Assembly (NCBI GenBank): GCA_965204215.1 | Contig: CBDBDZ010000013.1 | Coordinates: 1,165,606 to 1,229,605, forward strand | Direction: 5' to 3' | Length of the DNA stretch: 64,000 nucleotides | From: Pseudomonadales bacterium | Lineage (GTDB): Bacteria > Pseudomonadota > Gammaproteobacteria > Pseudomonadales > GM7GCV1 | Shown here: positions 34,201-48,163 of the stretch, piece after piece | How the letters are laid out: the number at the start of each line of letters is the position of its first letter | Position numbering within the stretch: the first letter of the stretch is position 1 | Position numbers and translations under genes: made by a program | Notes under the pieces: generated by a model | Seen by the model: only the letters and a program-made list of their open reading frames with translations | Told to the model about the DNA's origin: nothing | Databases searched by the model: none

Positions 34201-34415
34201 TTTAGCATGATGTACGCGTAAGTTATCAACAATCAAAAAAACCTTTTTAGATGATTGCTTTATTAATTGTTTCAAAAATTTGATGAAGACCTGAGCCGTG
34301 AACTTATCGTCATAGACCATAAAATGAAGTTTTCCTTGATTAGTAATGGTTGACACCATGTTAACTCGTTCACGCTTAGCCTGAGATAATACTAAAACTG
34401 GTGTTTGCCCTTTAG

Positions 34416-35996
34416 CCCGCATATTTCATAAACCTACAAATAACTTCGAGTTTAAGGTGAAGTTGGATTATCCTGCTTTAATTTAGTTTAAGTTTGTTGA
34501 ATACGTAGCTTAATATGCTCTTTGCCCGAATTTCAGACATAACTCCCCCTTACCCCCATTGTTTGTTCTCGTGCCGGGGCAGCACTTTTTACAGTCCTAT
34601 CCAGGTTTAAGCCGGGCGACAACCAACTCGAAGATATCTTGATAAGGATATGCGCTGGGTAATAGTAAGCGTATACGCCTGGTATTGGATAAAATAACGG
34701 CAGCCACTTTGAGTAATTTAAGGCGTATGGTTCCTACTTGTAATTGGGCAAAAACAGTGCTTTTTAAGCAGTGATGACGTAGTCGCTCCATCAACACATA
34801 AGCCAGTGACGATAACAACAGTCGCCATTGATTAGGCCACCAGTGATGACAACTCGTTCGGTCAGCAAACATATCGAGTTGCTGTTCTTTAATATGGTTT
34901 TCCATTTCGCCACGAGCACAATAGAGATCCTCATAAATAGCTTGATGTTCGCCCGATAAATTCGTCACCACAAATCGCGGGTTCATGCCTTTTCCAGTAT
35001 GTTCAATTTTAGCGATGACACGGCGTTGACGCGACCATGATTGAGCTGCATACTGGATATGAGTAAACCAGCGCAAGGGGTTTCCAGATCGTTCATATTG
35101 TTCATTGACCGCATCAATCCAGGGTGACAGCATCTCTAGTATTCGGCTATTTTTTGCAATGCCCAGCACGTAACCAACATCATGACGCTCACACCAATTC
35201 ATCATTTGATGCCGACAAAACCCACTATCGCCACGTATAATGATTCTGACATTAGGCCACTGTTTACGCAACCGTTTTACCAACAAACTGAGAATCGCCC
35301 AACTGTGCTTCGCGCCATCGATATTACTGGGTCGAAGATAGCTGACCAACAGTTGTTCACCGCAGAATACATACAAGGGTAAAAAACAATAATGCCGATA
35401 ATAACCATTGTAAGAGCGACCTTCTTGCGTACCATGGACGCGATCATCAGTGGCATCGAAGTCGAGAATTAATTCCTCTGGGGCACTATCAAACGAATCA
35501 ATAAATAGGTTCAACAATACGTCATGAATGGCAATGTTTGATTGCGCAGTAAATGATTGTTCTAATCGACACAATGTCGACTGGCTTCCCAGTACTTGAT
35601 CAGCTTCCGTTGCCGTTTGTAATGCCTTATCGTGTCGCAAGGTCTCGTGATCGTTAAGGTCTTCGTAACCCATGCATAAGCTATACAAGCGTTGACGAAT
35701 CAAACTCTGCAGTGAATGTTTCACATAACTGCTGTGCCGGGTATCGGGAAATACCGATGCCACTTGCTTGCTTAGACATAAGTGTTTATCAAGCTCTCTG
35801 AGCAATAAAACACCAGCATCGCTGGTCATATCGCCACCACTAAATTGAGTTTCGATTTGACGGCGATTTAAAGGTGAAAAGTAAGTAGAAGTTGAGGTAC
35901 AATCTGTCATCGGTGCTTGGCTTATAATTTTGACTTAACACATTGAATTATAACGCATTAAACAAGCACCGTACTTTTTTTTATGAAATATGCGGG
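34416..35996 (-). mobile_element. IS1380-like element, copy B (intact)
   Basis: 1581 bp flanked by TTAG on both sides (34412-34415 and 35997-36000). The uninterrupted IS630 copy 2 carries a single TTAG at the homologous site (30583-30586), which shows a 4-bp target duplication. Confidence 0.9.
34597..35910 (-). CDS. IS1380-family-like DDE transposase
   Basis: 437 aa, identical to the product of 46665-47978. It has an N-terminal GGDMTSDAGVLLLRELD motif, GYEDLNDHETLRHD, and the C-terminal YCARGEMENHIKEQQ signature typical of IS1380/IS4-superfamily enzymes. Confidence 0.85.
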   Translation of the reverse strand: MTDCTSTSTYFSPLNRRQIETQFSGGDMTSDAGVLLLRELDKHLCLSKQVASVFPDTRHSSYVKHSLQSLIRQRLYSLCMGYEDLNDHETLRHDKALQTATEADQVLGSQSTLCRLEQSFTAQSNIAIHDVLLNLFIDSFDSAPEELILDFDATDDRVHGTQEGRSYNGYYRHYCFLPLYVFCGEQLLVSYLRPSNIDGAKHSWAILSLLVKRLRKQWPNVRIIIRGDSGFCRHQMMNWCERHDVGYVLGIAKNSRILEMLSPWIDAVNEQYERSGNPLRWFTHIQYAAQSWSRQRRVIAKIEHTGKGMNPRFVVTNLSGEHQAIYEDLYCARGEMENHIKEQQLDMFADRTSCHHWWPNQWRLLLSSLAYVLMERLRHHCLKSTVFAQLQVGTIRLKLLKVAAVILSNTRRIRLLLPSAYPYQDIFELVVARLKPG

Positions 35997-37414
35997 TTAG
36001 GAGCATAACCGCGAGGATAATGCTCTTGACTCGAAATACCTGTTTCATCACCCCAGTGAATTTCTGCATCTTCATCCTGGGCGCGTTGGTGAATTGCAGG
36101 ATAATCTTCATCAAGCCACTGTTGAACTTGAGCAGGTTGCTGTTCATAACTACGTTTGACTGGACGCTGGGGGGTAAAACCCCAACGATTAAGGTAAAGA
36201 CAGACAGTTCGATAGGCTAAATCAATTGAAAATTCATCATCAATCAATTGTTGAACTGCTTTGATTGACCACAGTGCAAAATCCAACTTTAACTGGTCTG
36301 GTGTCTTATCAATAATCAACTTCTGAATATGTTTTTCTTGCTCCGGTGTTAAGTCCCGTCCCACTCCCAATGGGCGTCCTCGTGGTTTTTCTTTGGTGAG
36401 CTTTTCGCCTGATGCTTTATATTCACGTAGCCATTCTGATACCGTGATATAGCGAAGACCAAGCTCTTCGGCTATGGCTTTTTTTGTACGGTCTCCCTTC
36501 TTGTAAAGGCGAAGACAAATTTTTTTCAATTCTAGTCGAGACTCGGGGCTAAGGGTTCTTAAATCTACTTGTTTCATGACTAGTATTATAACATAAAATT
36601 ATGATATATTCATGCAGGGTTAATAGTATCTTCATCTTGAATATGAGCACCACTTTCAGCTCTATATATTAAAACTCCATAAGGAGTACCTCCTTTTAAA
36701 GTGTATACACACCAATATAAACCATACTTGGATATTAATAATACCCAATCACCTAAAAGTTCCTGCTCTCCAACAAAGTTTTTAGCATCCCGAATAGGAG
36801 GTTCGATTATAATTGATGAATTGACTAGTGACTCAATAATAAAGTTGGGTGTATAAAAGCTAAGCCGAGATGATTTTTCTTTATCTTTAGACTTCCATTT
36901 TTCAACAAACCCTTTCGCATCCTTAGTCAAATCTGACGTTGATATAAGCCACCCTTCTGAATATCCCTCACTCTCTACTATACCCCATAATTTATATAAA
37001 ATAGATGCAGATATTGGTTCTTTTTGAGCTTTACATTCTACGAGAATTTCTTTTCCATTGATCTTATGTTTGCATAATAAATCTAATTCGGCACTTATAG
37101 TGCGTATATTTTTAATGACATCATAGTTTTGGGTCACAAGTAGTTTTTTTGCTAATTCTTCCAAAAGGTCACCTTTATCTTTGCTACTATCGCTTCTTTT
37201 ACAAGCAACTTCTATTGTTATATTTGTCATGTTTCAACCTTCTATATATTTAACAGTGATTATAGAATAACATTGAAAAATTTTTTTCAATTGACATCCA
37301 CATATCAAGGCTATAAAAACACGAAAACTACGCAAGATAGAAAAGTGTTGGTAGCCGAAAAAAATAATTTTTTACTCTTGGCTACTGTCCTAAACATCAG
37401 TACTGTAACTATCC

Positions 37415-37924
37415 ATGTTATTGGATATAGTAGAATCAAATAGTCAGAACCGTTTTGCCAATATCGACACCAAGCAATTGTCAGAGCAAGAAGAAGTTTC
37501 CGCAGTCAATTTAGCTACCCAAATACTAGAAAGCTGTATTGAGACTAAAGAGCAGTTACAAGGCTCACAAGATGTCAAAAAATACCTGAGGTTAAAAATG
37601 GATGGTTATAAGCGAGAAGTTTTCTCGGTGTTATTTTTGGATAATCATCATCGAATTATCAGCTATGAAGAAATGTTTCTAGGCACGATTAATGCCTGCC
37701 ATGTTTACTGTCGAGAAATTGTCAAAAGGGCTTTAGATTTCAACTCAAGCGCAGTGATACTCGCACATAATCACCCGTCGGGACTCACCGAACCCAGTCA
37801 AGCCGATATTCACATCACCAAAACCATCAAAGATATTCTAAATGTCATTGATGTAAGAGTAGTCGACCATTTAATCGTCGGGGAGATGGGCGTGGTTTCG
37901 ATGACAGAGATGGGTTTGGTGTGA
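37415..37924 (+). CDS. radC: RadC-like JAB/MPN-domain protein
   Basis: 169 aa with the JAMM-type motif AHNHPSGLTEPSQADIHIT. It is the short form common on mobile elements. Confidence 0.85.
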   Translation: MLLDIVESNSQNRFANIDTKQLSEQEEVSAVNLATQILESCIETKEQLQGSQDVKKYLRLKMDGYKREVFSVLFLDNHHRIISYEEMFLGTINACHVYCREIVKRALDFNSSAVILAHNHPSGLTEPSQADIHITKTIKDILNVIDVRVVDHLIVGEMGVVSMTEMGLV

Positions 37925-38072: not shown

Positions 38073-38825
38073 ATGCTCGCCCCATGGATTATTGAACAAA
38101 TTGAAAAAATACCGCATAAAGTCTATGTTGAGCCTTTTGGTGGTGCCGCGAGTGTTTTGATTCGTAAAAAGCCCAGCGACATTGAAATCTACAACGACCT
38201 CAATGACGAACTGGTCAATTTTTTCAAAATTATCCGTAACCCGTACACCGCTGAACGGCTTATCAATATGCTGGAAAATACGCCGTACTCTCGGGTAGAG
38301 TTTAATACTTCCTATTTGCCCAGTAGCTTTAATCTTGAACGCGCTCGGCGATTAGCGGTTCGGGCTTTGATGGGTTTTGGGGCGACAGGGGCTAGTCGAT
38401 TAGCCAAAACTGGTTTTCGTTACCAAATATCAGGTGACCGCAGTGCCACACGTGACTGGATGACTTATCCCGAATCTCTCAGAAAAATATCCAAACGATT
38501 GAGGTCAGTGGTCATGGAAAATATCGATGCCTTGAAGCTGATTGAACGTTTTGACTCAGAGCGTACCCTCCACTATGTCGACCCGCCGTATATTTGGAAC
38601 ACTCGAAGTAAGAACGCTAAATACCAAGGCTACAAATACGAAATGAGCTATGAGGCCCATATCGAATTACTGCAACGATTAAAAAATTTGAAAGGTTCAG
38701 TACTGCTCAGTGCCTACGAACACCCGCTTTATGACCAACATTTGAAAGGTTGGAAAAAAATCACCAAACCCAGCTTTGCACTTAATGCCGCTCCAAGAAA
38801 AGAAGTATTGTGGATTAAATCATAA
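38073..38825 (+). CDS. DNA N6-adenine methyltransferase (D12 class, Dam-like); start problematic
   Basis: Catalytic DPPY motif (HYVDPPYIW). The conserved N-terminal AdoMet motif (FRYYGGKW) lies upstream of the first ATG, at 38049-38072 in frame. No ATG, GTG or TTG occurs between it and the in-frame stop at 38010. Confidence 0.7.
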   Translation: MLAPWIIEQIEKIPHKVYVEPFGGAASVLIRKKPSDIEIYNDLNDELVNFFKIIRNPYTAERLINMLENTPYSRVEFNTSYLPSSFNLERARRLAVRALMGFGATGASRLAKTGFRYQISGDRSATRDWMTYPESLRKISKRLRSVVMENIDALKLIERFDSERTLHYVDPPYIWNTRSKNAKYQGYKYEMSYEAHIELLQRLKNLKGSVLLSAYEHPLYDQHLKGWKKITKPSFALNAAPRKEVLWIKS

Positions 38826-38913: not shown

Positions 38914-39633
38914 ATGGATAAAGATGGGCTTTCATTTTATATCCTAGTAGGACTTATTATAGCTAGCTGTTTTGCTTTAGGTTATCAAGAACTACTTCCC
39001 AACGATCCAGACGAGCGACTTATTTACGAGTTTTTCTTTTGGGTGTTGGCAGTTATTGCTGCAATAGCTTATCTTGTTCCAGGTTTTTTGATTGAAGGTG
39101 TTGAGATACTGATAGACGCCGCGAAACACTGGGGACACTCATCAAGAATCACTGAATCAAAAGAGTATCAAATATTAAATGAAACTAATGTAGCTTGTGA
39201 CATTGAGAGCTTTAGTGAATTCATTCACAAAATGGCAGCATATTCGGATATTAAATTTTCATTATTTGCCAAAGCAAAAATCCAACAGGTTTATTTTAAA
39301 CTTCAGCAACTGGAAAATTTGGTACCTGAAGTTGTTCAAAGTTTAAAAGCGGCAGAAACAGGGAAATTTGGTGATGCCGCTCAACAAATAGAAGATTTAA
39401 CTTTCACCCTCAAAAATTACCATTCATCAATAGAAGCACTGACAGTCAAGGCAAGCAGCCAGGTAAAATACTGTCGTTATGATTCAGGTGATAAAGCTTA
39501 TGCCTTTTATAATAATGATCTTCGCCAACAAACCCAACAAAAACTTATTGAAAAACTAACCATGCACAAAAATGAAATCATTCCTGACCTCGGACATCGA
39601 TTACTGCCATTGAAACGTTATCGGATAAAATAG
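38914..39633 (+). CDS. Hypothetical membrane protein (2 TM helices plus helical cytoplasmic domain)
   Basis: 239-aa ORF with TM segments FYILVGLIIASCFALGY and FFFWVLAVIAAIAYLVPGFLI. No recognisable family. Confidence 0.5.
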   Translation: MDKDGLSFYILVGLIIASCFALGYQELLPNDPDERLIYEFFFWVLAVIAAIAYLVPGFLIEGVEILIDAAKHWGHSSRITESKEYQILNETNVACDIESFSEFIHKMAAYSDIKFSLFAKAKIQQVYFKLQQLENLVPEVVQSLKAAETGKFGDAAQQIEDLTFTLKNYHSSIEALTVKASSQVKYCRYDSGDKAYAFYNNDLRQQTQQKLIEKLTMHKNEIIPDLGHRLLPLKRYRIK

Positions 39634-39668
39634 AGTCACAAGATCAAGTCAATAATCGTTTTGATAAA

Positions 39669-40019
39669 TTGCAACTTACTAATAAAAAACAAATTAATGA
39701 AGCACTAGCAAAATTTAATAAAATATCAGGTTTAGGTCTTAAGCAGCTTGCTAAGCTAGATGAGAAGTTTGAACTAATCATGGTAATGAAAGATTTGGTT
39801 TATGAACGTGCCGAAACGCAAGAATCACATAATAAGCAGTACAAACAGTTTATTGATGATACCGTCTCTGATTTGAAAAAAGATATGACCACTCTACATG
39901 AATACTTTGGTACATTGAAAACACAGAATGAAGCTCTGATGGCAGCCAATTCAGGCGATGAGCAAGGAGCTTCTATGCAACAAATGATGCTATTACTCAA
40001 AGAGTTGAAAGATGCCTGA
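39669..40019 (+). CDS. Hypothetical coiled-coil protein
   Basis: 116-aa ORF with a TTG start, so the start is uncertain. The sequence is helical and heptad-rich. Its stop overlaps the next ORF's ATG by 8 nt. Confidence 0.45.
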   Translation: MQLTNKKQINEALAKFNKISGLGLKQLAKLDEKFELIMVMKDLVYERAETQESHNKQYKQFIDDTVSDLKKDMTTLHEYFGTLKTQNEALMAANSGDEQGASMQQMMLLLKELKDA

Positions 40020-40527
40020 TTCGTTAGAAGAAAAAAAAGAACTGCTACGATTGAAAGAAGACATGAATCGCGCTCGCCTAGAAATGTCGAGCGGGTTAGC
40101 GGTAGAGCGTCAAAAATCTCGTGAACTCAGTCACCAACAGCGACAGGAACTGGCTCTACAGGGGAACCTTGAAGCCGTTAAGCTTAATCATGAACTCGAC
40201 CCCGTTATCCGTGACCGTGATTTTGCTGACCTTGTGCGGGAAGAAAATGTTCGAGTTCAATCCCTAGGGGCTGAATTATCACTACGCTGGCAATACGATA
40301 AAGCTCAAAAGAATTTAGAGCAAAAGCAAACGATGGAGCAGATGCAGGCTGAGTTAATGCGAATGACGCTGGAATCCAAGCTGGAACAGAAAAAGATGGA
40401 AAAAGAAGAAGCCCTTGAAGAAAAGCTACTGACGTTTAAAGCAGAACTGGCTCAAGAGTTTGGGCAATTATCGGAAGAACAGATAAATAAGGCAGTTGAG
40501 AAGTTAGTGAAGCAGGGGAAGGTTTGA
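40012..40527 (+). CDS. Hypothetical coiled-coil protein (Glu/Lys/Gln-rich)
   Basis: 171-aa ORF. Its TGA overlaps the TTG start of the methyltransferase by 4 nt. Confidence 0.5.
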   Translation: MPDSLEEKKELLRLKEDMNRARLEMSSGLAVERQKSRELSHQQRQELALQGNLEAVKLNHELDPVIRDRDFADLVREENVRVQSLGAELSLRWQYDKAQKNLEQKQTMEQMQAELMRMTLESKLEQKKMEKEEALEEKLLTFKAELAQEFGQLSEEQINKAVEKLVKQGKV

Positions 40528-41774
40528 ACTTTCTTGATTTGTTCGCAGGTGCTGGAGGACTATCAGAAGGCTTTATTCGAGCAGGGTTCAATCCTATTGC
40601 CCATGTTGAATCTGATATTGCAGCTTGCTTTACTCTCAAAACCCGTGAAACCTATCATTGGTTAGTATCCCAACAAGAAGAACAACACTATATTGATTAT
40701 TTATATGGAAAAATAAATCGCTCGGATTTATACAATTTTTTACCCAAAAATCATGTAGGAACTGTTATAAACACAGAAATAGGTCAGAACCAACTCGGAA
40801 ATATATTTGATAAAATTGATTCTATATTAAACGGTAAAAAAATAGACTTAATCATTGGAGGACCTCCATGCCAAGCATATTCTGTAGTTGGAAGATCACG
40901 AGATGAAAACCGTATGAAAGGTGATTCTCGAAACTTTCTATATATTTACTATGCCCAATTTTTAAAGCAATATAAGCCCAAATTCTTTGTATTTGAAAAT
41001 GTTAAAGGATTGTTGTCCGCTAAAAACACACAGAATATAAGCTATTTTGATGAAATGCGTACACTTTTTAAAGAGTGTGGTTATGAAACTGAATTCATGA
41101 CTCTTTCAGCTGAAGAATATGGAGTCCCTCAAAAGCGAAAAAGAGTAATTTTAGTAGGTAGAAGGGGTAAGAAAAAAAATTTCTATCCGGAACCCATCAA
41201 GCTATCCCCTCAAGCTTTAGTTGAAGAAATTTTTTCTGATTTACCGTCAATAAAAGCTGGAGAAGGGAGTGTTACACCATGCAAAGCTAAGTTTTATGAT
41301 AGAACTTGGTTATACGAATCAGGAATAAAAAATGACGTCTATCCAATTACTTGGCATCAATCACGTCCTAATAAGAAACAGGATTTGGAAATATATAAAA
41401 TTGCTGTTAAGTTATGGAATAAGAATAAATATAGGCTCAATTATAATAATCTCCCCAACAGATTAAAAACTCATCAACAAAGAACTTCTTTTTTAGATAG
41501 ATTTAAAGTCGTCGCATCAAATAACCATTATGCACATACTGTAGTTGCTCATATATCAAAAGATGGACATTATTATATTCATCCTGATATAAAGCAAAAT
41601 CGTTCATTAACGCCGAGAGAAGCAGCTAGATTACAAACTTTTCCTGATAGTTATTTTTTTGAAAGTATTACTGGAAAACCTGCTAGAACTCCTGCTTTTC
41701 GCCAAATAGGTAATGCAGTACCTGTTCTTCTTGCACAAAAAATAGCTGAAAAACTTATAGAGAACTGGTCATGA
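40524..41774 (+). CDS. DNA (cytosine-5)-methyltransferase
   Basis: All canonical C5-MTase motifs are present: I (LDLFAGAGGLSEGF), IV (GGPPCQAYS), VI (ENVKGL), IX (RSLTPREAARLQTFPD) and X (QIGNAVPV). Confidence 0.95.
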   Translation: MNFLDLFAGAGGLSEGFIRAGFNPIAHVESDIAACFTLKTRETYHWLVSQQEEQHYIDYLYGKINRSDLYNFLPKNHVGTVINTEIGQNQLGNIFDKIDSILNGKKIDLIIGGPPCQAYSVVGRSRDENRMKGDSRNFLYIYYAQFLKQYKPKFFVFENVKGLLSAKNTQNISYFDEMRTLFKECGYETEFMTLSAEEYGVPQKRKRVILVGRRGKKKNFYPEPIKLSPQALVEEIFSDLPSIKAGEGSVTPCKAKFYDRTWLYESGIKNDVYPITWHQSRPNKKQDLEIYKIAVKLWNKNKYRLNYNNLPNRLKTHQQRTSFLDRFKVVASNNHYAHTVVAHISKDGHYYIHPDIKQNRSLTPREAARLQTFPDSYFFESITGKPARTPAFRQIGNAVPVLLAQKIAEKLIENWS

Positions 41775-43936
41775 CTAAAAATAATGATACTTTTAAAATC
41801 AGACCTGCTGGTCGTCACATATTAACCATTGGCAGGGATTTAATTCAAGATGTCCATTCGGCTATTATTGAACTAGTCAAAAATGCTTATGATGCTGATG
41901 CAACTAGGGTCAATATTTCACTTTCGCCAAACCCTAACGAAAAAGGATATGTAATTACTATTTCTGATAATGGGCATGGAATGAGCAGAAATGTAGTAAT
42001 CAATAAATGGATGGTTCCATCTACTGACGACAAACTCAAGAGAAAGGAAAGCCCAAATGGACGAATTATGCAAGGCCGTAAGGGCATTGGACGCTACGCA
42101 GCATCCATTTTAGGAAATGACTTGTTACTAGAGACAGTAACTCCCAGTGGAGAAAAAACAAGTCTTTACATTGAATGGGATAGTTTCTCAGAGGCTGAAT
42201 TCCTTGATAATGTTGAAATATTAATTGAGTCATCTAAATCCGTGGATAAATGTGGCACGGCGCTAACAATTAATAGTGATGATTCAAGTGGGTCTGAATT
42301 TAATGAAAAAACCTTTAAAAAACTTACCGAAGAACTACAAAAACTAATCCCTCCTTTTGAAGAAATTTCTAATGAAAAATTTGAAATCAGGATTGAAATT
42401 CAAGGCTTTGGAGAGGAAACAGATAGAAATGAAATTGTTCAATCTTTTCCAATTTTCAAGCTATTTGATTATAAAATTGTAGGATCTGTAACTAATGATG
42501 GAACAGGCATACTTAAATACTCACAACAGAACGCCAAAAACTCAGTCACTGAAGAAATAGAAATTAAGGTCGCAGAAAGGACTAACTGTGGTAACTTATA
42601 TTTCGATATTCGTGTATACGATAGAGAACCTGAAGCAATCGGCGCACTTGTTGGTAGAGGTTTGAAAGATCAATTTTCAAAGCAATACGTTGGCAAGCAA
42701 GAAGCAAAAAACATTTTAGACCTACATAATGGTATTGGAGTATATAGAAATGGCTTTAGAATAAGACCACTTGGTGATTCTGACTATGATTGGTTGAAGT
42801 TAAATAAACGAAGAGTTGATAACCCGTCTATGCGTATTGGTACTAATCAGGTAATCGGCTATGTCCTTATTGAAAGAGAAGAAAGTTCACATTTAATTGA
42901 AAAAAGTGCTAGAGATGGTCTAATCAATAATTCAGCTTTTAAAATGCTTGTAGGAGCTACAAATAAAGTTATTGGAGAGCTTGAGGCAAGACGATTTAAT
43001 TACAGGTCTAAAGCAGGGTTAAGTCGAAAAACTTTAGAAGTCGAGAAAGATATAGAGAGATTATTTTCATTTGATGAATTAAAATCAGGTATTAGAAAAT
43101 CTCTGTCTAATTCTGGTATTGAAACAAAGGCAATTCAAGAAGTATTGTCGTTAATCAATCAAAGTGAAAAACAAAAAAGCGAAGCTGTAACTAATATTCG
43201 AAAGACAGTCGCTTTCTATCAAGGTCAGGCTACTCTCGGTAAAATTATGAGCATAGTATTACATGAAGGAAGACAACCCCTTAGCTATTTTAGAACACAA
43301 ACAAGAAGTTTTAATGATTGGCTTGATAAGTATAATGAGAGTGGAGACATATCAATTTTGATTAAACTAAAGGAAAAAACTAGAGGCTTGAGTGAAAATG
43401 CAATAATTTTTTCAAAACTATTTTCTCGTTTAGACCCTCTAGCAGTTGGGAAAAGGTCCCCCCAAAAATTATTAAATATTTACTCTTCACTCAAAAAAAT
43501 TGCATCAATTTTTGAAAGCAAATTAAGTGAATCAAATATCGAGCTAATTATACAAGGGGATAAAAACATTTCTGATAACTTCTGGGAACAGGATTTGTAT
43601 TCAATTTTTACGAATCTAATCGATAATAGTATCTATTGGATTTGCGAAAAGCGGTGTTCTGTCAGAAAGATAGAAATTATTATTAAACCTCAGGCTAAAC
43701 AAACCTTCTTTATAGATTATCAGGATAGCGGTCCTGGAATTGAAGCAAGTTTGATTGAAAGTCAGGTTATCTTTGAACCACATTTTTCTACTAAACCAAA
43801 TGGTATGGGGTTAGGTCTAGCTATCGCTGGTGAATCAGCCATTAGAAATGGATACGAATTAGCGGCATTAGAATCAGATTTTGGAGCATATTTTCGAATA
43901 CAACAACAAGAGGTATTCACTGATGAGTATTTGTAA
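41771..43936 (+). CDS. Dual-GHKL protein: N-terminal MORC/MutL-like ATPase (HATPase_c_3-type) fused to a histidine-kinase core (DHp plus CA)
   Basis: The N-terminal region has IELVKNAYDADATRV, ISDNGHGMS and GRKGIGRYAASILG. The C-terminal region has an H-box (IVLHEGRQPLSYF), an N-box (IFTNLIDNSIYW), G1 (QDSGPGI) and G2 (PNGMGLGLAIA). The ATG overlaps the dcm stop (ATGA). Confidence 0.8.
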   Translation: MTKNNDTFKIRPAGRHILTIGRDLIQDVHSAIIELVKNAYDADATRVNISLSPNPNEKGYVITISDNGHGMSRNVVINKWMVPSTDDKLKRKESPNGRIMQGRKGIGRYAASILGNDLLLETVTPSGEKTSLYIEWDSFSEAEFLDNVEILIESSKSVDKCGTALTINSDDSSGSEFNEKTFKKLTEELQKLIPPFEEISNEKFEIRIEIQGFGEETDRNEIVQSFPIFKLFDYKIVGSVTNDGTGILKYSQQNAKNSVTEEIEIKVAERTNCGNLYFDIRVYDREPEAIGALVGRGLKDQFSKQYVGKQEAKNILDLHNGIGVYRNGFRIRPLGDSDYDWLKLNKRRVDNPSMRIGTNQVIGYVLIEREESSHLIEKSARDGLINNSAFKMLVGATNKVIGELEARRFNYRSKAGLSRKTLEVEKDIERLFSFDELKSGIRKSLSNSGIETKAIQEVLSLINQSEKQKSEAVTNIRKTVAFYQGQATLGKIMSIVLHEGRQPLSYFRTQTRSFNDWLDKYNESGDISILIKLKEKTRGLSENAIIFSKLFSRLDPLAVGKRSPQKLLNIYSSLKKIASIFESKLSESNIELIIQGDKNISDNFWEQDLYSIFTNLIDNSIYWICEKRCSVRKIEIIIKPQAKQTFFIDYQDSGPGIEASLIESQVIFEPHFSTKPNGMGLGLAIAGESAIRNGYELAALESDFGAYFRIQQQEVFTDEYL

Positions 43937-44927
43937 AATTATTGTTATTGAAGATGTGCAGAGTCAACTTGATCTATTCTACAGTACCATTTCTGACTTG
44001 AAGGAATTGGACTCAATAGAAATAGAACTTGAATCAGCACGAAACGTAGCAGAAGCGTTCAAAAAAATTGATGGTACTTTCGACGGAGCAATAATTGATA
44101 TGAAATTAGAAAAAGAAGAGCAAGGTGGATTAACAATAATCCAAGAAATAAAAAATAGATTTTATAGACTACCAGTAATTATTCACACAGCGACTCCAGA
44201 TTCTGTTGAAATCAGAGGTTCTGTCATTAATGTTTGTAAACGAAGTGAAATCGATATCAAAGATTTAATCTTAGAGTTATATTATTTATACAAGACAGGG
44301 ATAACTCAAATAATGGGTGGAAGGGGTCAAATTAATCGTGCCTTATCAGAAGTTTTTCAGAATAACATATTGCCTAGAAGAAGTTCTTGGGTTAACTATG
44401 CAAAAAATAATCAAAATACTGAAAAAGCTCTACTTCGCTACACTCTCAATCACTTACTACATAATCTTGATGACAAAAATGAAACATTCTTTCACGATGA
44501 AGTATATCTTTTGAGCGAAGAACTTCATACTGGAAGTATAGTAAGAAGAAAAGATATTAATACCTTGTTTGTCATATTAACCCCATCGTGTGACATGATT
44601 AAAAATCAAGATGGCATTAGAAGAACTGACACAATACTTTTAGCTGAAATTGAACCTTTTGCTTTCAATGAAAACGACAGCAGGGATGAAAAAAATAGAA
44701 AGGAGTCTAAAAGGAAAAACCAAACAAATTACTGTCACTGGCTTCCTCCTAAAGAAGGTTTACTTGATAGTGGGCTTATTAACTTTAGGAAGTTATATCA
44801 CCATGATTCTGATAGTTTTGAAAATAATTTTGTGTCAAAAAATTTACAGATATCTCAACCTTTTGTTAAGGATGTAATCTCTAGATTTTCATCATATTAT
44901 GCTAGGCAAGGACAACCCCAGTTATAA
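43923..44927 (+). CDS. Receiver (REC) domain protein with uncharacterised ~200-aa C-terminal domain
   Basis: The start was set to the ATG at 43923 (MSICKIIVIEDV), which overlaps the kinase gene by 14 nt. REC residues are present: ED in IVIEDV, the phospho-acceptor D in GAIIDMKL and T in VIIHTAT. No HTH or any known output domain is recognisable after about residue 125. Confidence 0.75.
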   Translation: MSICKIIVIEDVQSQLDLFYSTISDLKELDSIEIELESARNVAEAFKKIDGTFDGAIIDMKLEKEEQGGLTIIQEIKNRFYRLPVIIHTATPDSVEIRGSVINVCKRSEIDIKDLILELYYLYKTGITQIMGGRGQINRALSEVFQNNILPRRSSWVNYAKNNQNTEKALLRYTLNHLLHNLDDKNETFFHDEVYLLSEELHTGSIVRRKDINTLFVILTPSCDMIKNQDGIRRTDTILLAEIEPFAFNENDSRDEKNRKESKRKNQTNYCHWLPPKEGLLDSGLINFRKLYHHDSDSFENNFVSKNLQISQPFVKDVISRFSSYYARQGQPQL

Positions 44928-44968: not shown

Positions 44969-46069
44969 GTGCCCTACCAAGTCATTAAAACCATAAAAGG
45001 TCGCTCTTATTTGTATGAGCAGGAGACTTTTCGCGAGGGACAAAAGGTCAAAACGGTTAGTCGTTATATTGGTGCTTGCGACGGTGCTGGTAAAGCAACA
45101 TCCAAGGCAGTTCAACTAGCTATCACTGTACCACCTGAAGTCAAAGAAAACGATTCCCAAGCAAAATATGTTAGCGAAGAAAAGCCTCAGCCACCAAAGT
45201 TAACACTACAAATTACTACTGATTTGAAAGGCAATCATATCAGCCAGCCAGCGTTGGAACGTAACTACGATGATATTACTCATCAGATGCAGAGACAAGA
45301 GATTAAAGCCGAACATATCAAGCCTTTGGTTTTGGTAAAAGGCTTTAGTTTCAAGTACAAAAGCCTTAGGAAGCAGAACAAAATCAGTATTCCCAAAGCT
45401 AATGTCCGCGGTACTCGTGCTAAGGTCTGGCGCAGTTTTCACCTTGCCAACGCACACTCGTATCTCGATGGGTTACAGAAAAGTGATCCACAACGCTTTA
45501 CGGGTCTTCAGCAACATTTAGAGACATCCTACCGAAAGCAGAATAAAGCCATTGCCGCCCACATTATGAACAGCAACCGCAAGGACGTCTATAATATAGG
45601 GTTAACACTACATTTTATGTATTCTAAAATGGTGAGTGCTTGGACGCAGAGAAAGTTTCAAGCGGAAAACTTTGGACTGTCGAATTACGAAGACCGTTCC
45701 AGTTGGCGCGATGATGCAGCGTTGCTGATGGCAGAGATTCAAGCTGATGGCTGGCATCACTGTTACGACAAGTATCAACAAGAATTACTGCGTACTGAGC
45801 GTGCTTTGTTTCGGCAAATAACGAACTATCGCAAAGCTACTTTTCTCGACCGACTTAGTGGCAAGCGTGCCAAGCTGAAAAGAGCTTGTCTGCGAGCTAA
45901 TGCACGTCGTCGTGCGTTGTTTGAAACCTGTAATAAAATTTCGGTACTTTCATCGTTATACCACGGTTATAAGAATCAGTATCTGAATGGCAATGAACCT
46001 TTCACTCATGAACAAAACTGGCAAATAGCTCGTCAACGATACCGAAAAAAGAATAAATCAAAGCGATAG
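44969..46069 (+). CDS. Hypothetical basic protein
   Basis: 366-aa ORF with a GTG start, 41 nt after the REC gene. The N-terminus is YQVIKTIKGRSYLYEQETFREGQKVKTVSRYIG. The remainder is helical and Arg/Lys-rich, with the tail RQRYRKKNKSKR. No family recognised. Confidence 0.5.
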   Translation: MPYQVIKTIKGRSYLYEQETFREGQKVKTVSRYIGACDGAGKATSKAVQLAITVPPEVKENDSQAKYVSEEKPQPPKLTLQITTDLKGNHISQPALERNYDDITHQMQRQEIKAEHIKPLVLVKGFSFKYKSLRKQNKISIPKANVRGTRAKVWRSFHLANAHSYLDGLQKSDPQRFTGLQQHLETSYRKQNKAIAAHIMNSNRKDVYNIGLTLHFMYSKMVSAWTQRKFQAENFGLSNYEDRSSWRDDAALLMAEIQADGWHHCYDKYQQELLRTERALFRQITNYRKATFLDRLSGKRAKLKRACLRANARRRALFETCNKISVLSSLYHGYKNQYLNGNEPFTHEQNWQIARQRYRKKNKSKR

Positions 46070-46579: not shown

Positions 46580-48159
46580 CCCGCATATTTCATAAAAAAA
46601 GTACGGTGCTTGTTTAATGCGTTATAATTCAATGTGTTAAGTCAAAATTATAAGCCAAGCACCGATGACAGATTGTACCTCAACTTCTACTTACTTTTCA
46701 CCTTTAAATCGCCGTCAAATCGAAACTCAATTTAGTGGTGGCGATATGACCAGCGATGCTGGTGTTTTATTGCTCAGAGAGCTTGATAAACACTTATGTC
46801 TAAGCAAGCAAGTGGCATCGGTATTTCCCGATACCCGGCACAGCAGTTATGTGAAACATTCACTGCAGAGTTTGATTCGTCAACGCTTGTATAGCTTATG
46901 CATGGGTTACGAAGACCTTAACGATCACGAGACCTTGCGACACGATAAGGCATTACAAACGGCAACGGAAGCTGATCAAGTACTGGGAAGCCAGTCGACA
47001 TTGTGTCGATTAGAACAATCATTTACTGCGCAATCAAACATTGCCATTCATGACGTATTGTTGAACCTATTTATTGATTCGTTTGATAGTGCCCCAGAGG
47101 AATTAATTCTCGACTTCGATGCCACTGATGATCGCGTCCATGGTACGCAAGAAGGTCGCTCTTACAATGGTTATTATCGGCATTATTGTTTTTTACCCTT
47201 GTATGTATTCTGCGGTGAACAACTGTTGGTCAGCTATCTTCGACCCAGTAATATCGATGGCGCGAAGCACAGTTGGGCGATTCTCAGTTTGTTGGTAAAA
47301 CGGTTGCGTAAACAGTGGCCTAATGTCAGAATCATTATACGTGGCGATAGTGGGTTTTGTCGGCATCAAATGATGAATTGGTGTGAGCGTCATGATGTTG
47401 GTTACGTGCTGGGCATTGCAAAAAATAGCCGAATACTAGAGATGCTGTCACCCTGGATTGATGCGGTCAATGAACAATATGAACGATCTGGAAACCCCTT
47501 GCGCTGGTTTACTCATATCCAGTATGCAGCTCAATCATGGTCGCGTCAACGCCGTGTCATCGCTAAAATTGAACATACTGGAAAAGGCATGAACCCGCGA
47601 TTTGTGGTGACGAATTTATCGGGCGAACATCAAGCTATTTATGAGGATCTCTATTGTGCCCGTGGCGAAATGGAAAACCATATTAAAGAACAGCAACTCG
47701 ATATGTTTGCTGACCGAACGAGTTGTCATCACTGGTGGCCTAATCAATGGCGACTGTTGTTATCGTCACTGGCTTATGTGTTGATGGAGCGACTACGTCA
47801 TCACTGCTTAAAAAGCACTGTTTTTGCCCAATTACAAGTAGGAACCATACGCCTTAAATTACTCAAAGTGGCTGCCGTTATTTTATCCAATACCAGGCGT
47901 ATACGCTTACTATTACCCAGCGCATATCCTTATCAAGATATCTTCGAGTTGGTCGTCGCCCGGCTTAAACCTGGATAAGACTGTAAAAAGTGCTGCCCCG
48001 GCACGAGAACAAACAATGGGGGTAAGGGGGAGTTATGTCTGAAATTCGGGCAAAGAGCATATTAAGCTACGTATTCAACAAACTTAAACTAAATTAAAGC
48101 AGGATAATCCAACTTCACCTTAAACTCGAAGTTATTTGTAGGTTTATGAAATATGCGGG
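46580..48159 (+). mobile_element. IS1380-like element, copy C (intact)
   Basis: 1580 bp with the same ends as copies A and B. The flanking tetranucleotides differ: TTAG at 46576-46579 versus CTAG at 48160-48163. Confidence 0.9.
46665..47978 (+). CDS. IS1380-family-like DDE transposase
   Basis: 437-aa ORF identical in sequence to the product of 34597-35910. Confidence 0.85.
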   Translation: MTDCTSTSTYFSPLNRRQIETQFSGGDMTSDAGVLLLRELDKHLCLSKQVASVFPDTRHSSYVKHSLQSLIRQRLYSLCMGYEDLNDHETLRHDKALQTATEADQVLGSQSTLCRLEQSFTAQSNIAIHDVLLNLFIDSFDSAPEELILDFDATDDRVHGTQEGRSYNGYYRHYCFLPLYVFCGEQLLVSYLRPSNIDGAKHSWAILSLLVKRLRKQWPNVRIIIRGDSGFCRHQMMNWCERHDVGYVLGIAKNSRILEMLSPWIDAVNEQYERSGNPLRWFTHIQYAAQSWSRQRRVIAKIEHTGKGMNPRFVVTNLSGEHQAIYEDLYCARGEMENHIKEQQLDMFADRTSCHHWWPNQWRLLLSSLAYVLMERLRHHCLKSTVFAQLQVGTIRLKLLKVAAVILSNTRRIRLLLPSAYPYQDIFELVVARLKPG

Positions 48160-48163
48160 CTAG

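What the first reader, a model, noticed from the sequence alone, without database searches (positions are those of the whole stretch)
43923..44927. Receiver-domain protein whose ~200-aa C-terminal domain matches nothing I recognise; putative effector of the operon.
After the REC domain (to about residue 125), the sequence has no HTH, GGDEF, HD-GYP, CheB or other familiar output signature. The sequence begins YKTGITQIMGGRGQINRAL, continues through LNHLLHNLDDKNETFFHDEVY and VILTPSCDMIKNQDG, and ends QISQPFVKDVISRFSSYYARQGQPQL. It does contain a His/Asp-rich patch (HLLHNLDD...FFHDE) that could bind metal, but that is speculation. If the operon is a defence system, this is the best candidate for the phosphorylation-gated effector.
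Basis: inference. Interest (0 to 1): 0.6.

Follow-up and report, generated by a model that had tools for sequence, protein, structure and literature searches.

The report
Receiver protein with toxin-fold output domain
This gene encodes a phosphorylation-switch protein whose unrecognised back half has the fold of the MazF/PemK bacterial toxins, and it is the likely killing or arresting arm of a widespread but untested three-gene DNA-methylase/sensor-kinase/effector module on mobile DNA.

Summary
The ORF at 43923-44927 is real. It has a receiver (REC) domain with the phospho-acceptor residues, then about 210 aa that no sequence library recognises.

The family is large: at least 851 clusters at 90% identity, in more than 10 phyla and on plasmids. 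A confident AlphaFold model of the C-terminal domain (pLDDT 92) shows a two-helix hairpin followed by a beta-barrel. That barrel's only convincing structural matches are MazF/PemK toxins, at fold level only. Sequence profiles find no similarity, and MazF's catalytic Arg/Thr are not conserved. The family has its own invariant set: R172, E193, Y195, C223-D224, K316-D317 and a C-terminal RQGxP tail.

The gene always follows a paraMORC-type GHKL + histidine-kinase fusion (79/80 loci). A C5 DNA methylase usually precedes that (58/73). In a distant variant, a REC-only protein plus a separate HNH endonuclease fills the same slot.

Best reading: a phosphorylation-gated, toxin-fold effector of a methylase-linked two-component defence or addiction module. 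The substrate and chemistry are unknown.

A 2021 comparative-genomics paper described this kind of cassette but not this domain, and its Pfam models do not hit this protein. I class it as a new variant of a known kind.

The parts
40524..41774 (+). C5 cytosine DNA methyltransferase (416 aa), first gene of the conserved cassette
   Evidence: Pfam DNA_methylase E=2e-61, TIGR00675 dcm, PADLOC DrmMII/MTase_II models. A C5 MTase lies immediately upstream of the kinase in 58/73 testable related loci. Its stop overlaps the kinase start (ATGA).
41771..43936 (+). Sensor protein (721 aa): N-terminal paraMORC-type GHKL ATPase, a highly conserved middle region, and a C-terminal histidine-kinase core (DHp + CA)
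   Evidence: HATPase_c_3 at aa 28-153 and HATPase_c at aa 607-698. The N-terminus resembles BbrUII/HgiDII restriction enzymes (NF050001, E=1e-16). Residues 473-710 align to the FixL kinase core in the PDB. It lies immediately upstream of the RR gene in 79/80 loci.
41852..42229 (+). GHKL (HATPase_c_3) ATP-binding domain of the sensor; E34/N38 and D66-x-G-x-G70 motifs
   Evidence: E34, N38, D41, D66, G68 and G70 are 100% conserved in 74 homologues. Coordinates verified.
42728..42919 (+). Invariant motifs of the sensor's middle region (NGIGVYRNGFRIRPLGD ... EKSARDG), function unknown
   Evidence: 90-100% identity across 74 sequences from many phyla. No family matches this stretch.
43262..43267 (+). 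H-box His498-Glu499, the predicted autophosphorylation site
   Evidence: 100% conserved in 74 homologues, including MTase-less loci.
43589..43864 (+). Kinase catalytic ATP-binding (CA) domain with N, G1 and G2 boxes
   Evidence: HATPase_c E=1.4e-17. N615, N619, D652, G654, G656, G678, G680 and G682 are conserved.
43923..44291 (+). Receiver (REC) domain of the finding's protein, aa 1-123; E10-D11, D54, phospho-acceptor D59 (44097-44099), T89, K106
   Evidence: PF00072, CheY matches, AlphaFold (beta-alpha)5 fold. D11, D54 and D59 are 100% and T89 98% conserved in 76 homologues.
44292..44504 (+). Gly-rich linker (G126-x-T-x-I-x-G-G-R-G135) and two long helices (aa 136-161 and 165-181) carrying invariant W156, R172, H177 and E193
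   Evidence: Model m5e6c9a27dc6b, pLDDT 92; conservation. The MazF structural matches do not cover this part (aligned columns ~130 of 211).
44505..44924 (+). MazF/PemK-fold beta-barrel core, aa 195-334, with family-specific motifs P221-x-C223-D224 (44583-44594), HWLP (44736-44747), NFR (44781-44789), FVKD (44862-44873), Y-A-R-Q-G-Q-P (44898-44918) and a variable basic insert (aa ~244-269)
   Evidence: Foldseek against the PDB: the top ~35 hits are all MazF-type toxins, probability 1.00, TM 0.65-0.76 normalised to MazF. BFVD returns PemK-like proteins and endoribonucleases. P221, C223, D224, R328, Q329, G330 and P332 are invariant in 137 and in 76 sequences and in Campylobacter and Bacillus plasmid homologues.
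34413..35981 (-). Left copy of an IS (DDE_Tnp_1_4 transposase) bracketing the island that carries the cassette
   Evidence: 1,569-nt inverted repeat, 100% identical to 46594-48162; transposase Pfam E=8e-167.
46594..48162 (+). Right copy of the same IS

Best explanation
The protein is the response-regulator arm of a self-contained three-gene mobile module: C5 DNA methyltransferase, then a soluble sensor that fuses a paraMORC-type GHKL ATPase to a histidine-kinase core, then this REC-effector protein. The sensor autophosphorylates on His498 and passes the phosphate to Asp59 of the receiver. The receiver then releases or assembles the C-terminal domain, which is a two-helix hairpin packed on a beta-barrel of the MazF/PemK (CcdB/Kid) toxin fold. 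I propose that this domain is a latent toxic effector acting on nucleic acid. RNA is the most likely substrate, by analogy with every enzymatic member of that fold. It would use its own active site, built around the invariant Cys223-Asp224 with R172, E193, Y195, K316-D317 and the C-terminal R328-Q-G-x-P332 tail. MazF enzymes work as dimers and phosphorylated receivers commonly dimerise, so phosphorylation-driven dimerisation is the most economical gating mechanism. Occlusion by the helical hairpin is the alternative. The module would act as a defence or addiction system whose trigger is read by the GHKL/middle domain, plausibly from DNA whose status the methylase sets. Shown here: the ORF, the intact phosphorelay residues on both proteins, the fold, the invariant residues, the gene linkage, the swappable effector slot and the mobile context. 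Inferred: phosphotransfer between the two proteins, gating, toxicity, substrate and trigger.
For: Phosphorelay residues are intact and invariant: RR D11/D54/D59/T89, and HK H498/E499 with the N, G1 and G2 boxes. The HK gene is adjacent in 79/80 loci with overlapping stop and start codons, and a C5 MTase is adjacent in 58/73. No other window gene recurs. The C-domain model is confident (pLDDT 92.3, pTM 0.84). Its top ~35 PDB fold matches are exclusively MazF-type toxins plus the type III toxin CptN, and viral matches are PemK-like proteins and endoribonucleases. About 20 polar residues are invariant across phyla, and the Cys-Asp and RxGxP motifs persist in 28-31%-identical plasmid homologues and in a very divergent Allorhizobium variant. 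In a Bacillus variant cassette, a REC-only protein of this family's type (E=1.5e-9) is followed by a separate HNH endonuclease and an N6 methylase, so a killing effector occupies this slot. The beta-core is basic and the REC acidic (pI 8.6 against 4.5). The module sits in mobile or defence contexts: an IS-bracketed island with Mrr, RadC, Dam and a STAND NTPase nearby, conjugative plasmids, and neighbours such as type III R-M and TIR genes. There is experimental precedent for a kinase plus REC-effector defence system with swappable effectors: Detocs (bioRxiv 10.1101/2023.01.24.525353).
Against: The MazF similarity is structural only. hhalign against a MazF/Kid profile gives probability ~1%, and no Pfam PemK signal appears in any of 137 members. 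On that non-significant but topologically congruent alignment, MazF's catalytic R29 and T52 fall on non-conserved positions. The fold also includes the non-enzymatic gyrase poison CcdB, so the fold does not prove nuclease activity. H272 and N287/R289 are lost in Campylobacter homologues, so part of the apparent motif set is not universal. Ten of eleven MTase-less loci keep both proteins fully intact. That argues against a trigger as simple as 'unmethylated self-DNA', unless a methylase acts in trans. No toxicity, phosphotransfer or phage-defence data exist for any member in the literature I could search. I could not inspect model coordinates, so clustering of the invariant residues into one site is untested.
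Confidence: 0.5

Rival explanations
1. The C-domain is a non-catalytic binding module of the CcdB type. After phosphorylation it binds and poisons or sequesters a cellular protein (for example a topoisomerase), or it docks onto the sensor or methylase to regulate them, rather than cleaving anything.
For: CcdB shares the MazF fold and is not an enzyme (established knowledge). The canonical MazF catalytic residues are absent. The HK partner is also extraordinarily conserved, including an unexplained middle region, which fits a co-evolving protein-protein interface. CcdB also depends on its last three residues, and this family has an invariant C-terminal RQGxP tail.
Against: Foldseek's top hits are MazF/Kid-type RNases rather than CcdB. 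An invariant Cys-Asp pair plus invariant Arg, Glu, Lys and Tyr is more typical of an active site than of an interface. The HNH nuclease in the variant cassette suggests the slot holds an enzyme.
Confidence: 0.17
2. The C-domain is the DNA endonuclease (the 'R' component) of an unusual phosphorelay-controlled restriction-modification system. It cuts DNA that lacks the cassette's m5C mark.
For: There is tight linkage to a C5 methylase (58/73). The sensor's N-terminus is homologous to the N-terminus of genuine type II enzymes of the BbrUII/HgiDII family (PADLOC REase_II). The variant cassette has a separate HNH DNA endonuclease and a methylase. No other nuclease candidate exists in the three genes.
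Against: No known DNA-endonuclease fold or motif is present, and to my knowledge the MazF fold has no known DNase members. Ten MTase-less loci retain intact kinase and effector, which would be lethal for a classical R-M system unless a trans methylase exists. My early PD-(D/E)xK guess was not borne out by the fold.
Confidence: 0.15
3. The invariant Cys223 is a nucleophile. The domain would then be a thiol-dependent enzyme of another kind, such as a peptidase or amidase, or an enzyme that forms a covalent adduct with a pyrimidine base.
For: P-x-C-D is absolutely invariant down to the most divergent members. The Cys sits at the N-terminus of a short helix directly after a strand, a common geometry for nucleophilic cysteines. 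H177 is replaced by Cys in Campylobacter, which could instead point to a metal site.
Against: The fold is not papain-, caspase- or sortase-like. The candidate partner His272 and Asn287 are lost in Campylobacter homologues. There is no cofactor-binding domain.
Confidence: 0.1
4. It is an ordinary regulator. The C-domain binds DNA or RNA to control expression of the neighbouring methylase or R-M genes, as the 2021 paper speculated for such pairs.
For: PMC8011034 proposes that such TCS-like pairs 'control, directly or indirectly, R-M systems'. MazF-fold proteins bind nucleic acid, and the core is mildly basic.
Against: There is no HTH or other DNA-binding regulator fold. The invariant residue set is catalytic-looking. 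The cassette is mobile and self-contained, with no conserved regulated target beyond its own three translationally coupled genes.
Confidence: 0.08

Closest known systems
TCS-like HK/RR pairs linked to C5 methylases and paraMORC ATPases (Bellieny-Rabelo, Pretorius & Moleleki 2021, Genome Biol Evol, PMC8011034; Pfam HEF_HK PF19191 and Response_reg_2 PF19192)
   Same: Same kind of cassette. A soluble kinase with N-terminal HATPase_c_3 and C-terminal HATPase_c lies adjacent to an RR-like protein with a divergent receiver. A C5 DNA methylase is usually upstream. The taxon range includes Yersinia, Serratia and Vibrio. The paper suggests a link to R-M systems and paraMORCs.
   Different: The paper analyses only the receiver and DHp regions and says nothing about the RR's C-terminal domain. 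Its RR query is stated to be 600 aa, against 334 aa here. Neither PF19191 nor PF19192 hits the window proteins, the Serratia homologues or 137 family members, although PF19191 is cited as a live Pfam family in 2026. Membership of their families is therefore unconfirmed, and this may be a sister branch.
Detocs defensive two-component system (Rousset et al., bioRxiv 10.1101/2023.01.24.525353)
   Same: A histidine kinase is paired with a response regulator whose DNA-binding output is replaced by a cell-killing effector. The kinase His and receiver Asp are required for defence. The isolated effector is toxic, and the effector domain is swappable between operons.
   Different: Detocs has a TPR-type sensor, a third 'buffer' protein with a stand-alone receiver, a PNP ATP-nucleosidase effector and no methylase. 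This cassette has a GHKL/paraMORC-type sensor, no buffer gene, a C5 methylase and a MazF-fold effector. No PADLOC model hit the RR.
MazF/PemK/Kid endoribonuclease toxins (Pfam PF02452) and the wider CcdB/MazF fold
   Same: The beta-barrel core has the same topology: strand order, a short helix after strand 2, and a C-terminal helix. TM is 0.65-0.76 normalised to MazF, with Foldseek probability 1.00.
   Different: There is no detectable sequence relationship. The catalytic Arg/Thr of MazF are not conserved. The domain carries an extra N-terminal two-helix hairpin, a variable basic insert and a conserved C-terminal tail. Instead of being neutralised by a separate antitoxin, it is fused to a receiver domain.
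paraMORC / BbrUII-HgiDII-type GHKL proteins of restriction-modification systems (Iyer, Abhiman & Aravind 2008, PMC2292703)
   Same: The partner sensor's N-terminal GHKL domain has intact ATPase motifs, is homologous to the N-terminus of HgiDII-family restriction enzymes, and sits next to a cytosine methylase.
   Different: paraMORCs are fused or linked to nucleases, helicases or TIR domains. Neither the receiver word nor any two-component term occurs in the 2008 paper, and 'histidine kinase' appears only as part of the GHKL acronym. Here the nuclease half is replaced by a kinase core that signals to a separate effector.
PrrC/EcoprrI-type latent RNase toxins embedded in R-M loci (my own knowledge, not tested here)
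   Same: The concept is similar: a latent RNA-targeting toxin genetically coupled to DNA-modification genes and released on phage interference.
   Different: There is no homology. PrrC is held in check by protein-protein contact with a type I R-M complex, not by a His-Asp phosphorelay.

Membership tests
Response regulator receiver (REC/CheY-like) superfamily | (beta-alpha)5 fold | tested here: met
   The AlphaFold model shows alternating strands and helices over aa 4-124 with pLDDT ~88-95. A profile of the family hits dozens of REC structures in the PDB.
Response regulator receiver (REC/CheY-like) superfamily | Acidic pair after beta1, phospho-acceptor Asp after beta3, Thr/Ser after beta4, Lys after beta5 | tested here: met
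   E10-D11, D59 (plus D54) and T89 are 98-100% conserved in 76 homologues. K106 lies at the end of predicted beta5 and is Lys in the family consensus, but falls below 90% in my alignment.
Response regulator receiver (REC/CheY-like) superfamily | Pfam PF00072 score above its gathering threshold | tested here: not met
   26.2 bits against a 30.2-bit cut-off (E=9.5e-6). Only 77/137 members hit at E<=1, so this is a divergent receiver.
Response regulator receiver (REC/CheY-like) superfamily | Cognate histidine kinase with a conserved phospho-His | tested here: met
   The adjacent gene has H498-E499 and N/G1/G2 boxes that are 100% conserved, and is adjacent in 79/80 loci. Actual phosphotransfer is not testable here.
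HEF_HK / Response_reg_2 TCS-like system (PMC8011034) | RR-like gene adjacent to a HATPase_c_3 + DHp + HATPase_c kinase, with a C5 methylase upstream | tested here: met
HEF_HK / Response_reg_2 TCS-like system (PMC8011034) | Match to Pfam PF19191 (kinase) and PF19192 (RR) | tested here: not met
   No hit even at E<=10 on the isolated H-box and REC regions, the Serratia homologues, 137 members or the distant variants. I could not verify that this Pfam copy contains the two models.
HEF_HK / Response_reg_2 TCS-like system (PMC8011034) | RR-like protein comparable to the paper's reference (KS44_RS10365, stated as 600 aa) | tested here: inconclusive
   The window protein is 334 aa and the family is 330-390 aa. 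The paper's sequences and supplements are not available here.
MazF/PemK toxin family (PF02452) | SH3-like barrel of the CcdB/MazF fold | tested here: met
   Foldseek against the PDB and BFVD, using a pLDDT-92 model.
MazF/PemK toxin family (PF02452) | Sequence-profile membership | tested here: not met
   No PF02452 hit in 137 members. hhalign probability ~1% against a MazF/Kid profile.
MazF/PemK toxin family (PF02452) | Catalytic Arg (E. coli R29) and Thr/Ser (T52) | tested here: not met
   On the topologically congruent but non-significant alignment, these map to variable positions. The family's invariant residues lie elsewhere.
MazF/PemK toxin family (PF02452) | Small cognate antitoxin gene (MazE/PemI type) immediately upstream | tested here: not met
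   The upstream gene is the 721-aa kinase in 79/80 loci, and no small ORF is conserved.
MazF/PemK toxin family (PF02452) | Homodimer with an active site at the interface; endoribonuclease activity | not testable with these tools
   No multimer prediction or assay was available.
Detocs | Kinase plus REC-effector response regulator | tested here: met
   Architecture; compared.
Detocs | Third gene encoding a stand-alone 'buffer' receiver (DtcB), a TPR-containing DtcA, and a PNP effector in most operons | tested here: not met
   No such gene in the conserved cassette. The sensor N-terminus is GHKL, not TPR. The effector is MazF-fold.
Type II restriction-modification system | DNA methyltransferase | tested here: met
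Type II restriction-modification system | Recognisable restriction endonuclease | tested here: not met
   No nuclease family was found in the three genes. Only the first ~200 aa of the kinase resemble BbrUII/HgiDII enzymes.
paraMORC GHKL ATPases | N-terminal GHKL domain with intact ATP-binding motifs, in an R-M context | tested here: met
paraMORC GHKL ATPases | S5-fold transducer domain after the GHKL domain | not tested
   Both structure-prediction jobs went on the RR, and no sequence family matches aa 160-470.

The most novel reading that the evidence does not exclude
A methylation-coupled innate-immune two-component system. A MORC-like GHKL clamp would read the state of DNA set by the linked m5C methylase and report it by His-Asp phosphorelay to a response regulator. 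That regulator's output would be a MazF-fold toxin with a previously unseen Cys-Asp-centred active site. If so, this would be the first toxin-fold response-regulator output and a new catalytic class within the MazF/CcdB fold, spread over more than ten phyla and onto Campylobacter conjugative plasmids.
Probability: 0.25. Interest if true: 0.8.

Novelty: new variant of a known kind. Interest (0 to 1): 0.62.

Why it matters
Two-component systems were only recently shown to act as direct anti-phage immunity (Detocs). This family would be a second, architecturally different case, and it is far more widespread: 500 clusters at 50% identity, found in bacteria and in one archaeal MAG, and on conjugative Campylobacter plasmids. 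It joins three themes that are normally separate: DNA methylation (self-marking), a MORC-type GHKL ATPase (relatives of eukaryotic chromatin silencers) and a toxin-antitoxin-type fold. The fold assignment turns an anonymous 'response regulator/hypothetical protein' annotation into a directly testable hypothesis, with named residues to mutate: D59, C223, D224 and R328. If the Cys-Asp site is catalytic, it extends the chemistry known for the MazF fold. If the GHKL domain senses methylation status, it offers a bacterial model for how MORC ATPases read epigenetic marks.

Tried and rejected
- **PD-(D/E)xK nuclease** (P221-x-C-D ... E240-x-E242). Rejected because the fold is MazF-like, not a restriction-endonuclease fold, and E240 is not conserved.
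- **Papain/NlpC-like Cys223-His272-Asn287 triad.** Rejected because H272 and N287 are lost in Campylobacter homologues and the fold does not match.
Only H177 and E193 are conserved, and the window's H191-D192 replace a consensus Pro-Glu.
- **A longer operon.** The 366-aa downstream gene (44969-46069) and the three coiled-coil ORFs upstream (38914-40527) never recur with the cassette.
- **Sequence homology to MazF.** hhalign was negative at ~1% probability.
- **Model coordinates.** They are not exposed to scripts, so 3D clustering of the invariant residues could not be checked.
- **E. coli complete genomes.** No DNA-level match to the Serratia cassette.
- **Promoter and terminator scans.** At chance level.
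- **Literature.** The WASA Vibrio cholerae systems (WonAB, VcSduA) and the 2020 conflict-systems paper are unrelated. DefensePredictor lists HATPase and REC only as abbreviations in a legend of predicted, unvalidated systems.
- **Source organism.** The window protein's own contig is not on record in the look-up, and its cluster carries no name, so the organism is unidentified.

Full report
**Observation**

A longer TTG-initiated version begins at 43881, but every homologue starts at the equivalent of the ATG. That ATG overlaps the stop codon of the upstream gene by 14 nt.

Residues 1-123 are a divergent receiver domain:
- Pfam PF00072 matches at E=9.5e-6 but scores below its gathering cut-off.
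- CheY-type structures are the only PDB sequence matches.
- AlphaFold gives a (beta-alpha)5 fold at pLDDT ~90.

The acidic pair E10-D11, D54, the phospho-acceptor D59 and T89 are 98-100% conserved in 76 homologues.

Residues 124-334 match nothing in Pfam, NCBIfam, PADLOC or PHROGs. This holds for the window protein and for each of 137 homologues scanned individually.

**Family size and conservation**

The C-terminal domain alone retrieves 851 clusters at 90% identity. An exhaustive HMMER scan finds 500 representative clusters at 50% identity. Almost all are ~350-aa proteins with the domain starting near residue 125.

Conservation was measured at three depths:
- **137 diverse sequences:** G204, P221, C223, R328, Q329, G330 and P332 are invariant. 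R172, E193, Y195, D224, H272, K316, R321 and Y326 are at least 90% conserved.
- **76 proteins from one genome per species:** the invariant polar set is R172, H177, E193, C223, D224, H272, R289, K316, R321, S323, Y326 and R328-Q-G-Q-P332.
- **Campylobacter and Bacillus plasmid homologues (28-31% identical):** these keep R172, E193, Y195, P221-x-C-D, K316-D317 and the R-Q-G-x-P tail. They lose or alter H272, N287 and R289, and Campylobacter has Cys in place of H177.

**Fold**

A full-length model was only moderately confident in the C-terminal half. A domain-only model built on the 137-sequence alignment is confident, with pLDDT 92.3 and pTM 0.84.

It shows:
- a Gly-rich linker (GxTxIxGGRG);
- two long helices;
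- a beta-barrel with a short helix after the second strand (carrying Cys223-Asp224);
- a variable basic insert;
- a long C-terminal helix followed by the invariant tail.

Foldseek against the PDB returns ~35 top hits that are all MazF/PemK-type toxins from E. coli, B. subtilis, S. aureus, M. tuberculosis, D. radiodurans and K. pneumoniae, plus the type III toxin CptN. Probability is ~1.00, TM is 0.65-0.76 normalised to the toxin, and identity is 8-14%. The viral library independently returns 'PemK-like protein' and 'endoribonuclease' entries. Only the barrel (~130 columns) is matched; the helical hairpin is not.

The relationship is at fold level only. A profile-profile comparison with a MazF/Kid/EndoA profile gives ~1% probability. 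The alignment it proposes follows the same order of secondary-structure elements, but it places MazF's catalytic R29 and T52 on variable positions of this family. On that same weak alignment, the family's N287-F-R289 motif falls on the strand that carries Kid's catalytic R73 and D75. Kid's catalytic residues are from my own knowledge, so this is a lead, not a result.

**Genomic context**

In the window the gene is third in a translationally coupled trio:
- a C5 cytosine methylase (40524-41774);
- a 721-aa soluble protein with an N-terminal HATPase_c_3 GHKL domain and a C-terminal histidine-kinase core (41771-43936);
- the REC protein.

The kinase's first ~200 residues also match the N-terminus of BbrUII/HgiDII-family restriction enzymes and PADLOC REase_II models. 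Its residues 473-710 align with the FixL DHp+CA core.

Across 80 loci from one-genome-per-species contigs (counts):

| Feature | Count |
|---|---|
| Kinase gene immediately upstream of the RR gene | 79/80 (the exception is cut by a contig end) |
| C5 methylase immediately upstream of the kinase | 58/73 testable loci |
| C5 methylase elsewhere in the locus | 4 |
| No C5 methylase detected | 11 |
| Any other window gene recurring with the cassette | 0 |

Serratia and Poribacteria loci show the same overlapping gene junctions.

The taxa span Gamma-, Alpha- and Deltaproteobacteria, Bacteroidota, Poribacteria, Chloroflexota, Nitrospirota, Spirochaetota, Chlorobiota, Verrucomicrobiota and Latescibacterota, plus one Methanoperedenaceae MAG.

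The pair also occurs on plasmids, including ~41 Campylobacter plasmids (the one inspected is conjugative). RefSeq there calls the genes 'sensor histidine kinase' and 'response regulator', with a convergent dcm next to them. It is rare in viral contigs, at 2 loci.

The kinase is extraordinarily conserved. The GHKL motifs (E34, N38, D66xGxG70), H498-E499 and the N/G1/G2 boxes are invariant. So are long stretches of the unannotated middle region, such as NGIGVYRNGFRIRPLGD and EKSARDG.

**Variants that inform function**

Two distant full-length relatives of the kinase (22-26% identity) sit in differently built cassettes.

- **Bacillus sp. SH8-8.** The kinase is followed by a 215-aa protein whose receiver matches this family's REC profile (E=1.5e-9) but which lacks the C-domain. 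A separate HNH endonuclease and an N6 methylase come next.
- **Allorhizobium.** An N6/N4-type methylase precedes the kinase. The next protein (409 aa) ends in a recognisably divergent copy of the C-domain: AECD, FRD and PPFITRVQQRYAAYMQRPGMP.

So the methylase type and the effector are both swappable, a bona fide nuclease can occupy the effector slot, and the Cys-Asp and RxGxP motifs are the deepest-conserved features of the domain.

**The methylase is not indispensable in cis**

Ten of the eleven MTase-less loci keep kinase and RR intact at every catalytic and motif position. Most of these are Poribacteria. In one, the same Abhydrolase_11 neighbour seen next to the methylase elsewhere now abuts the kinase, which suggests the methylase was deleted. 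Only L082 shows decay, with a split kinase and a truncated RR.

This weakens a classical restriction logic in which unmethylated self-DNA is lethal, unless an unlinked methylase compensates.

**Mechanism proposed**

- **Shown:** a complete and invariant set of phosphorelay residues on both proteins, obligatory adjacency, a toxin-type fold with a dense invariant polar set, a swappable effector slot, and mobile or defence contexts.
- **Inferred:** the GHKL/middle domain senses a trigger, plausibly DNA whose status the methylase sets. His498 is phosphorylated, and the phosphate moves to Asp59. The receiver then activates the C-domain, either by dimerisation (MazF active sites form at dimer interfaces and receivers commonly dimerise on phosphorylation; established knowledge) or by releasing the helical hairpin. 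The activated domain attacks nucleic acid, most likely RNA, and arrests the cell.

I put this at ~0.5. The rivals are:
- a non-catalytic CcdB-like binder (0.17);
- a phosphorelay-controlled DNA restriction nuclease (0.15);
- a thiol enzyme of another kind (0.10);
- an ordinary regulator (0.08).

**Comparison with the literature**

Bellieny-Rabelo et al. 2021 (PMC8011034) described TCS-like pairs with exactly this outline. They reported 91.6% linkage between an RR-like protein and a HATPase_c_3/HATPase_c kinase, with frequent upstream C5 methylases and a paraMORC affinity. They defined Pfam HEF_HK (PF19191) and Response_reg_2 (PF19192).

They did not analyse any output domain. Their RR query is stated to be 600 aa. 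Neither Pfam model hits any protein examined here, although PF19191 is still cited as current. I therefore file the window's pair as the same kind of cassette, with unconfirmed membership in their families.

The 2008 paraMORC paper contains no receiver or two-component terms, and names histidine kinase only within the GHKL acronym.

Detocs is the closest experimentally proven analogue. It has a kinase plus REC-effector, requires the His and Asp, has a toxic isolated effector, and shows effector swapping. It differs in its sensor, its buffer protein, its effector and the absence of a methylase.

Searches for a MazF-like or PemK-like response-regulator output found nothing.

**Verdict**

The new result is the fold assignment and the definition of the conserved three-gene module and its core motifs.

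- **Novelty:** a new variant of a known kind, namely an effector-bearing two-component conflict system with a methylase-linked paraMORC-type sensor.
- **Interest:** 0.62. The family is large, phylogenetically broad, plasmid-borne in a pathogen genus and completely uncharacterised experimentally, and there is now a concrete, cheap set of experiments. The function itself remains inferred.

Noticed in passing
window 34413-35981 and 46594-48162: Two 100% identical 1,569-nt IS copies (DDE_Tnp_1_4 transposase, 437 aa) lie in inverted orientation. They bracket 10,612 nt that carry an Mrr-like nuclease, RadC, a Dam-type methylase, three unknown coiled-coil ORFs, the cassette and an unknown 366-aa gene. 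This is a composite-transposon-like island.
   Followed up: partly
window 33952-34422 (-) and 35981-36577 (-): The DDE_3 half and the HTH half of an IS630-like transposase are separated by the left IS copy, so the IS inserted into an older IS. An intact paralogue lies at 30123-31163.
   Followed up: partly
window 31781-33907 (-): A 708-aa STAND NTPase (nSTAND1/NACHT/AAA_16 hits) sits in the lowest-GC stretch of the region (32%), next to the island. It may be another defence gene.
   Followed up: no
window 36610-37230 (-), 37415-37924 (+), 38073-38825 (+): An Mrr_cat/NA-iREase1-like nuclease-fold protein, a RadC JAB-domain protein and a D12-class N6-adenine methylase form a second cluster of DNA-modification or anti-restriction-type genes in the same island.
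   Followed up: no
window 38914-40527 (+) and 44969-46069 (+): Three consecutive ORFs (239, 116 and 171 aa) and a 366-aa ORF match nothing in any library. The last of the three overlaps the methylase start by 4 nt. None of the four recurs with the cassette in 80 related loci.
   Followed up: partly
window 42728-42919 (kinase aa 320-383): The sensor's middle region carries motifs that are 90-100% identical across phyla (NGIGVYRNGFRIRPLGD, EKSARDG, also DY.I.G and D.RV.DR) and match no known family. It could be the signal-reading or DNA-binding part.
   Followed up: partly
L028, L068, L070 (upstream of the kinase): In three Poribacteria loci that lack the methylase, a ~500-aa TIR_2/SEFIR-domain protein occupies the position immediately upstream of the kinase.
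   Followed up: no
L090 4486-9860 (Bacillus sp. SH8-8 plasmid pl193): Variant cassette: an 843-aa GHKL-kinase, a 215-aa REC plus coiled-coil protein, an HNH endonuclease and an N6 DNA methylase. It appears to be a phosphorelay-linked R-M-like system with a conventional nuclease.
   Followed up: partly
L089 3299-8848 (Allorhizobium pseudoryzae plasmid): Variant cassette with an N6/N4-type methylase, a 756-aa GHKL-kinase, a 409-aa protein and a 265-aa Cys-rich protein. The 409-aa protein has a degenerate receiver-like N-terminus (VVIDN...IMDWNL...IFTNE) and a divergent copy of the C-domain.
   Followed up: partly
L086 (Campylobacter jejuni pAR-0413-1) and ~40 other Campylobacter plasmids: The kinase/RR pair with a convergent dcm is carried on 50-75-kb Campylobacter jejuni and C. 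coli plasmids; the one inspected (pAR-0413-1) is typed conjugative and has the pair next to vapD and type IV secretion genes.
   Followed up: partly
P0151 (571 aa, metagenomic): A single protein fuses a partial C5 methylase (aa 105-244) directly to the RR's C-domain (aa 346-563). It is probably a deletion product or assembly chimera.
   Followed up: no
L060 (Candidatus Methanoperedenaceae MAG): A complete methylase/kinase/RR cassette occurs on an archaeal MAG contig. This is either inter-domain transfer or a binning artefact.
   Followed up: no
window 44493-44498 and 44919-44927: The window's protein departs from the family consensus at two points. It has His191-Asp192 where the family has Pro-Glu. 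It also ends right after the invariant RQGQP tail (QL-stop), whereas homologues extend 10-30 residues further.
   Followed up: no
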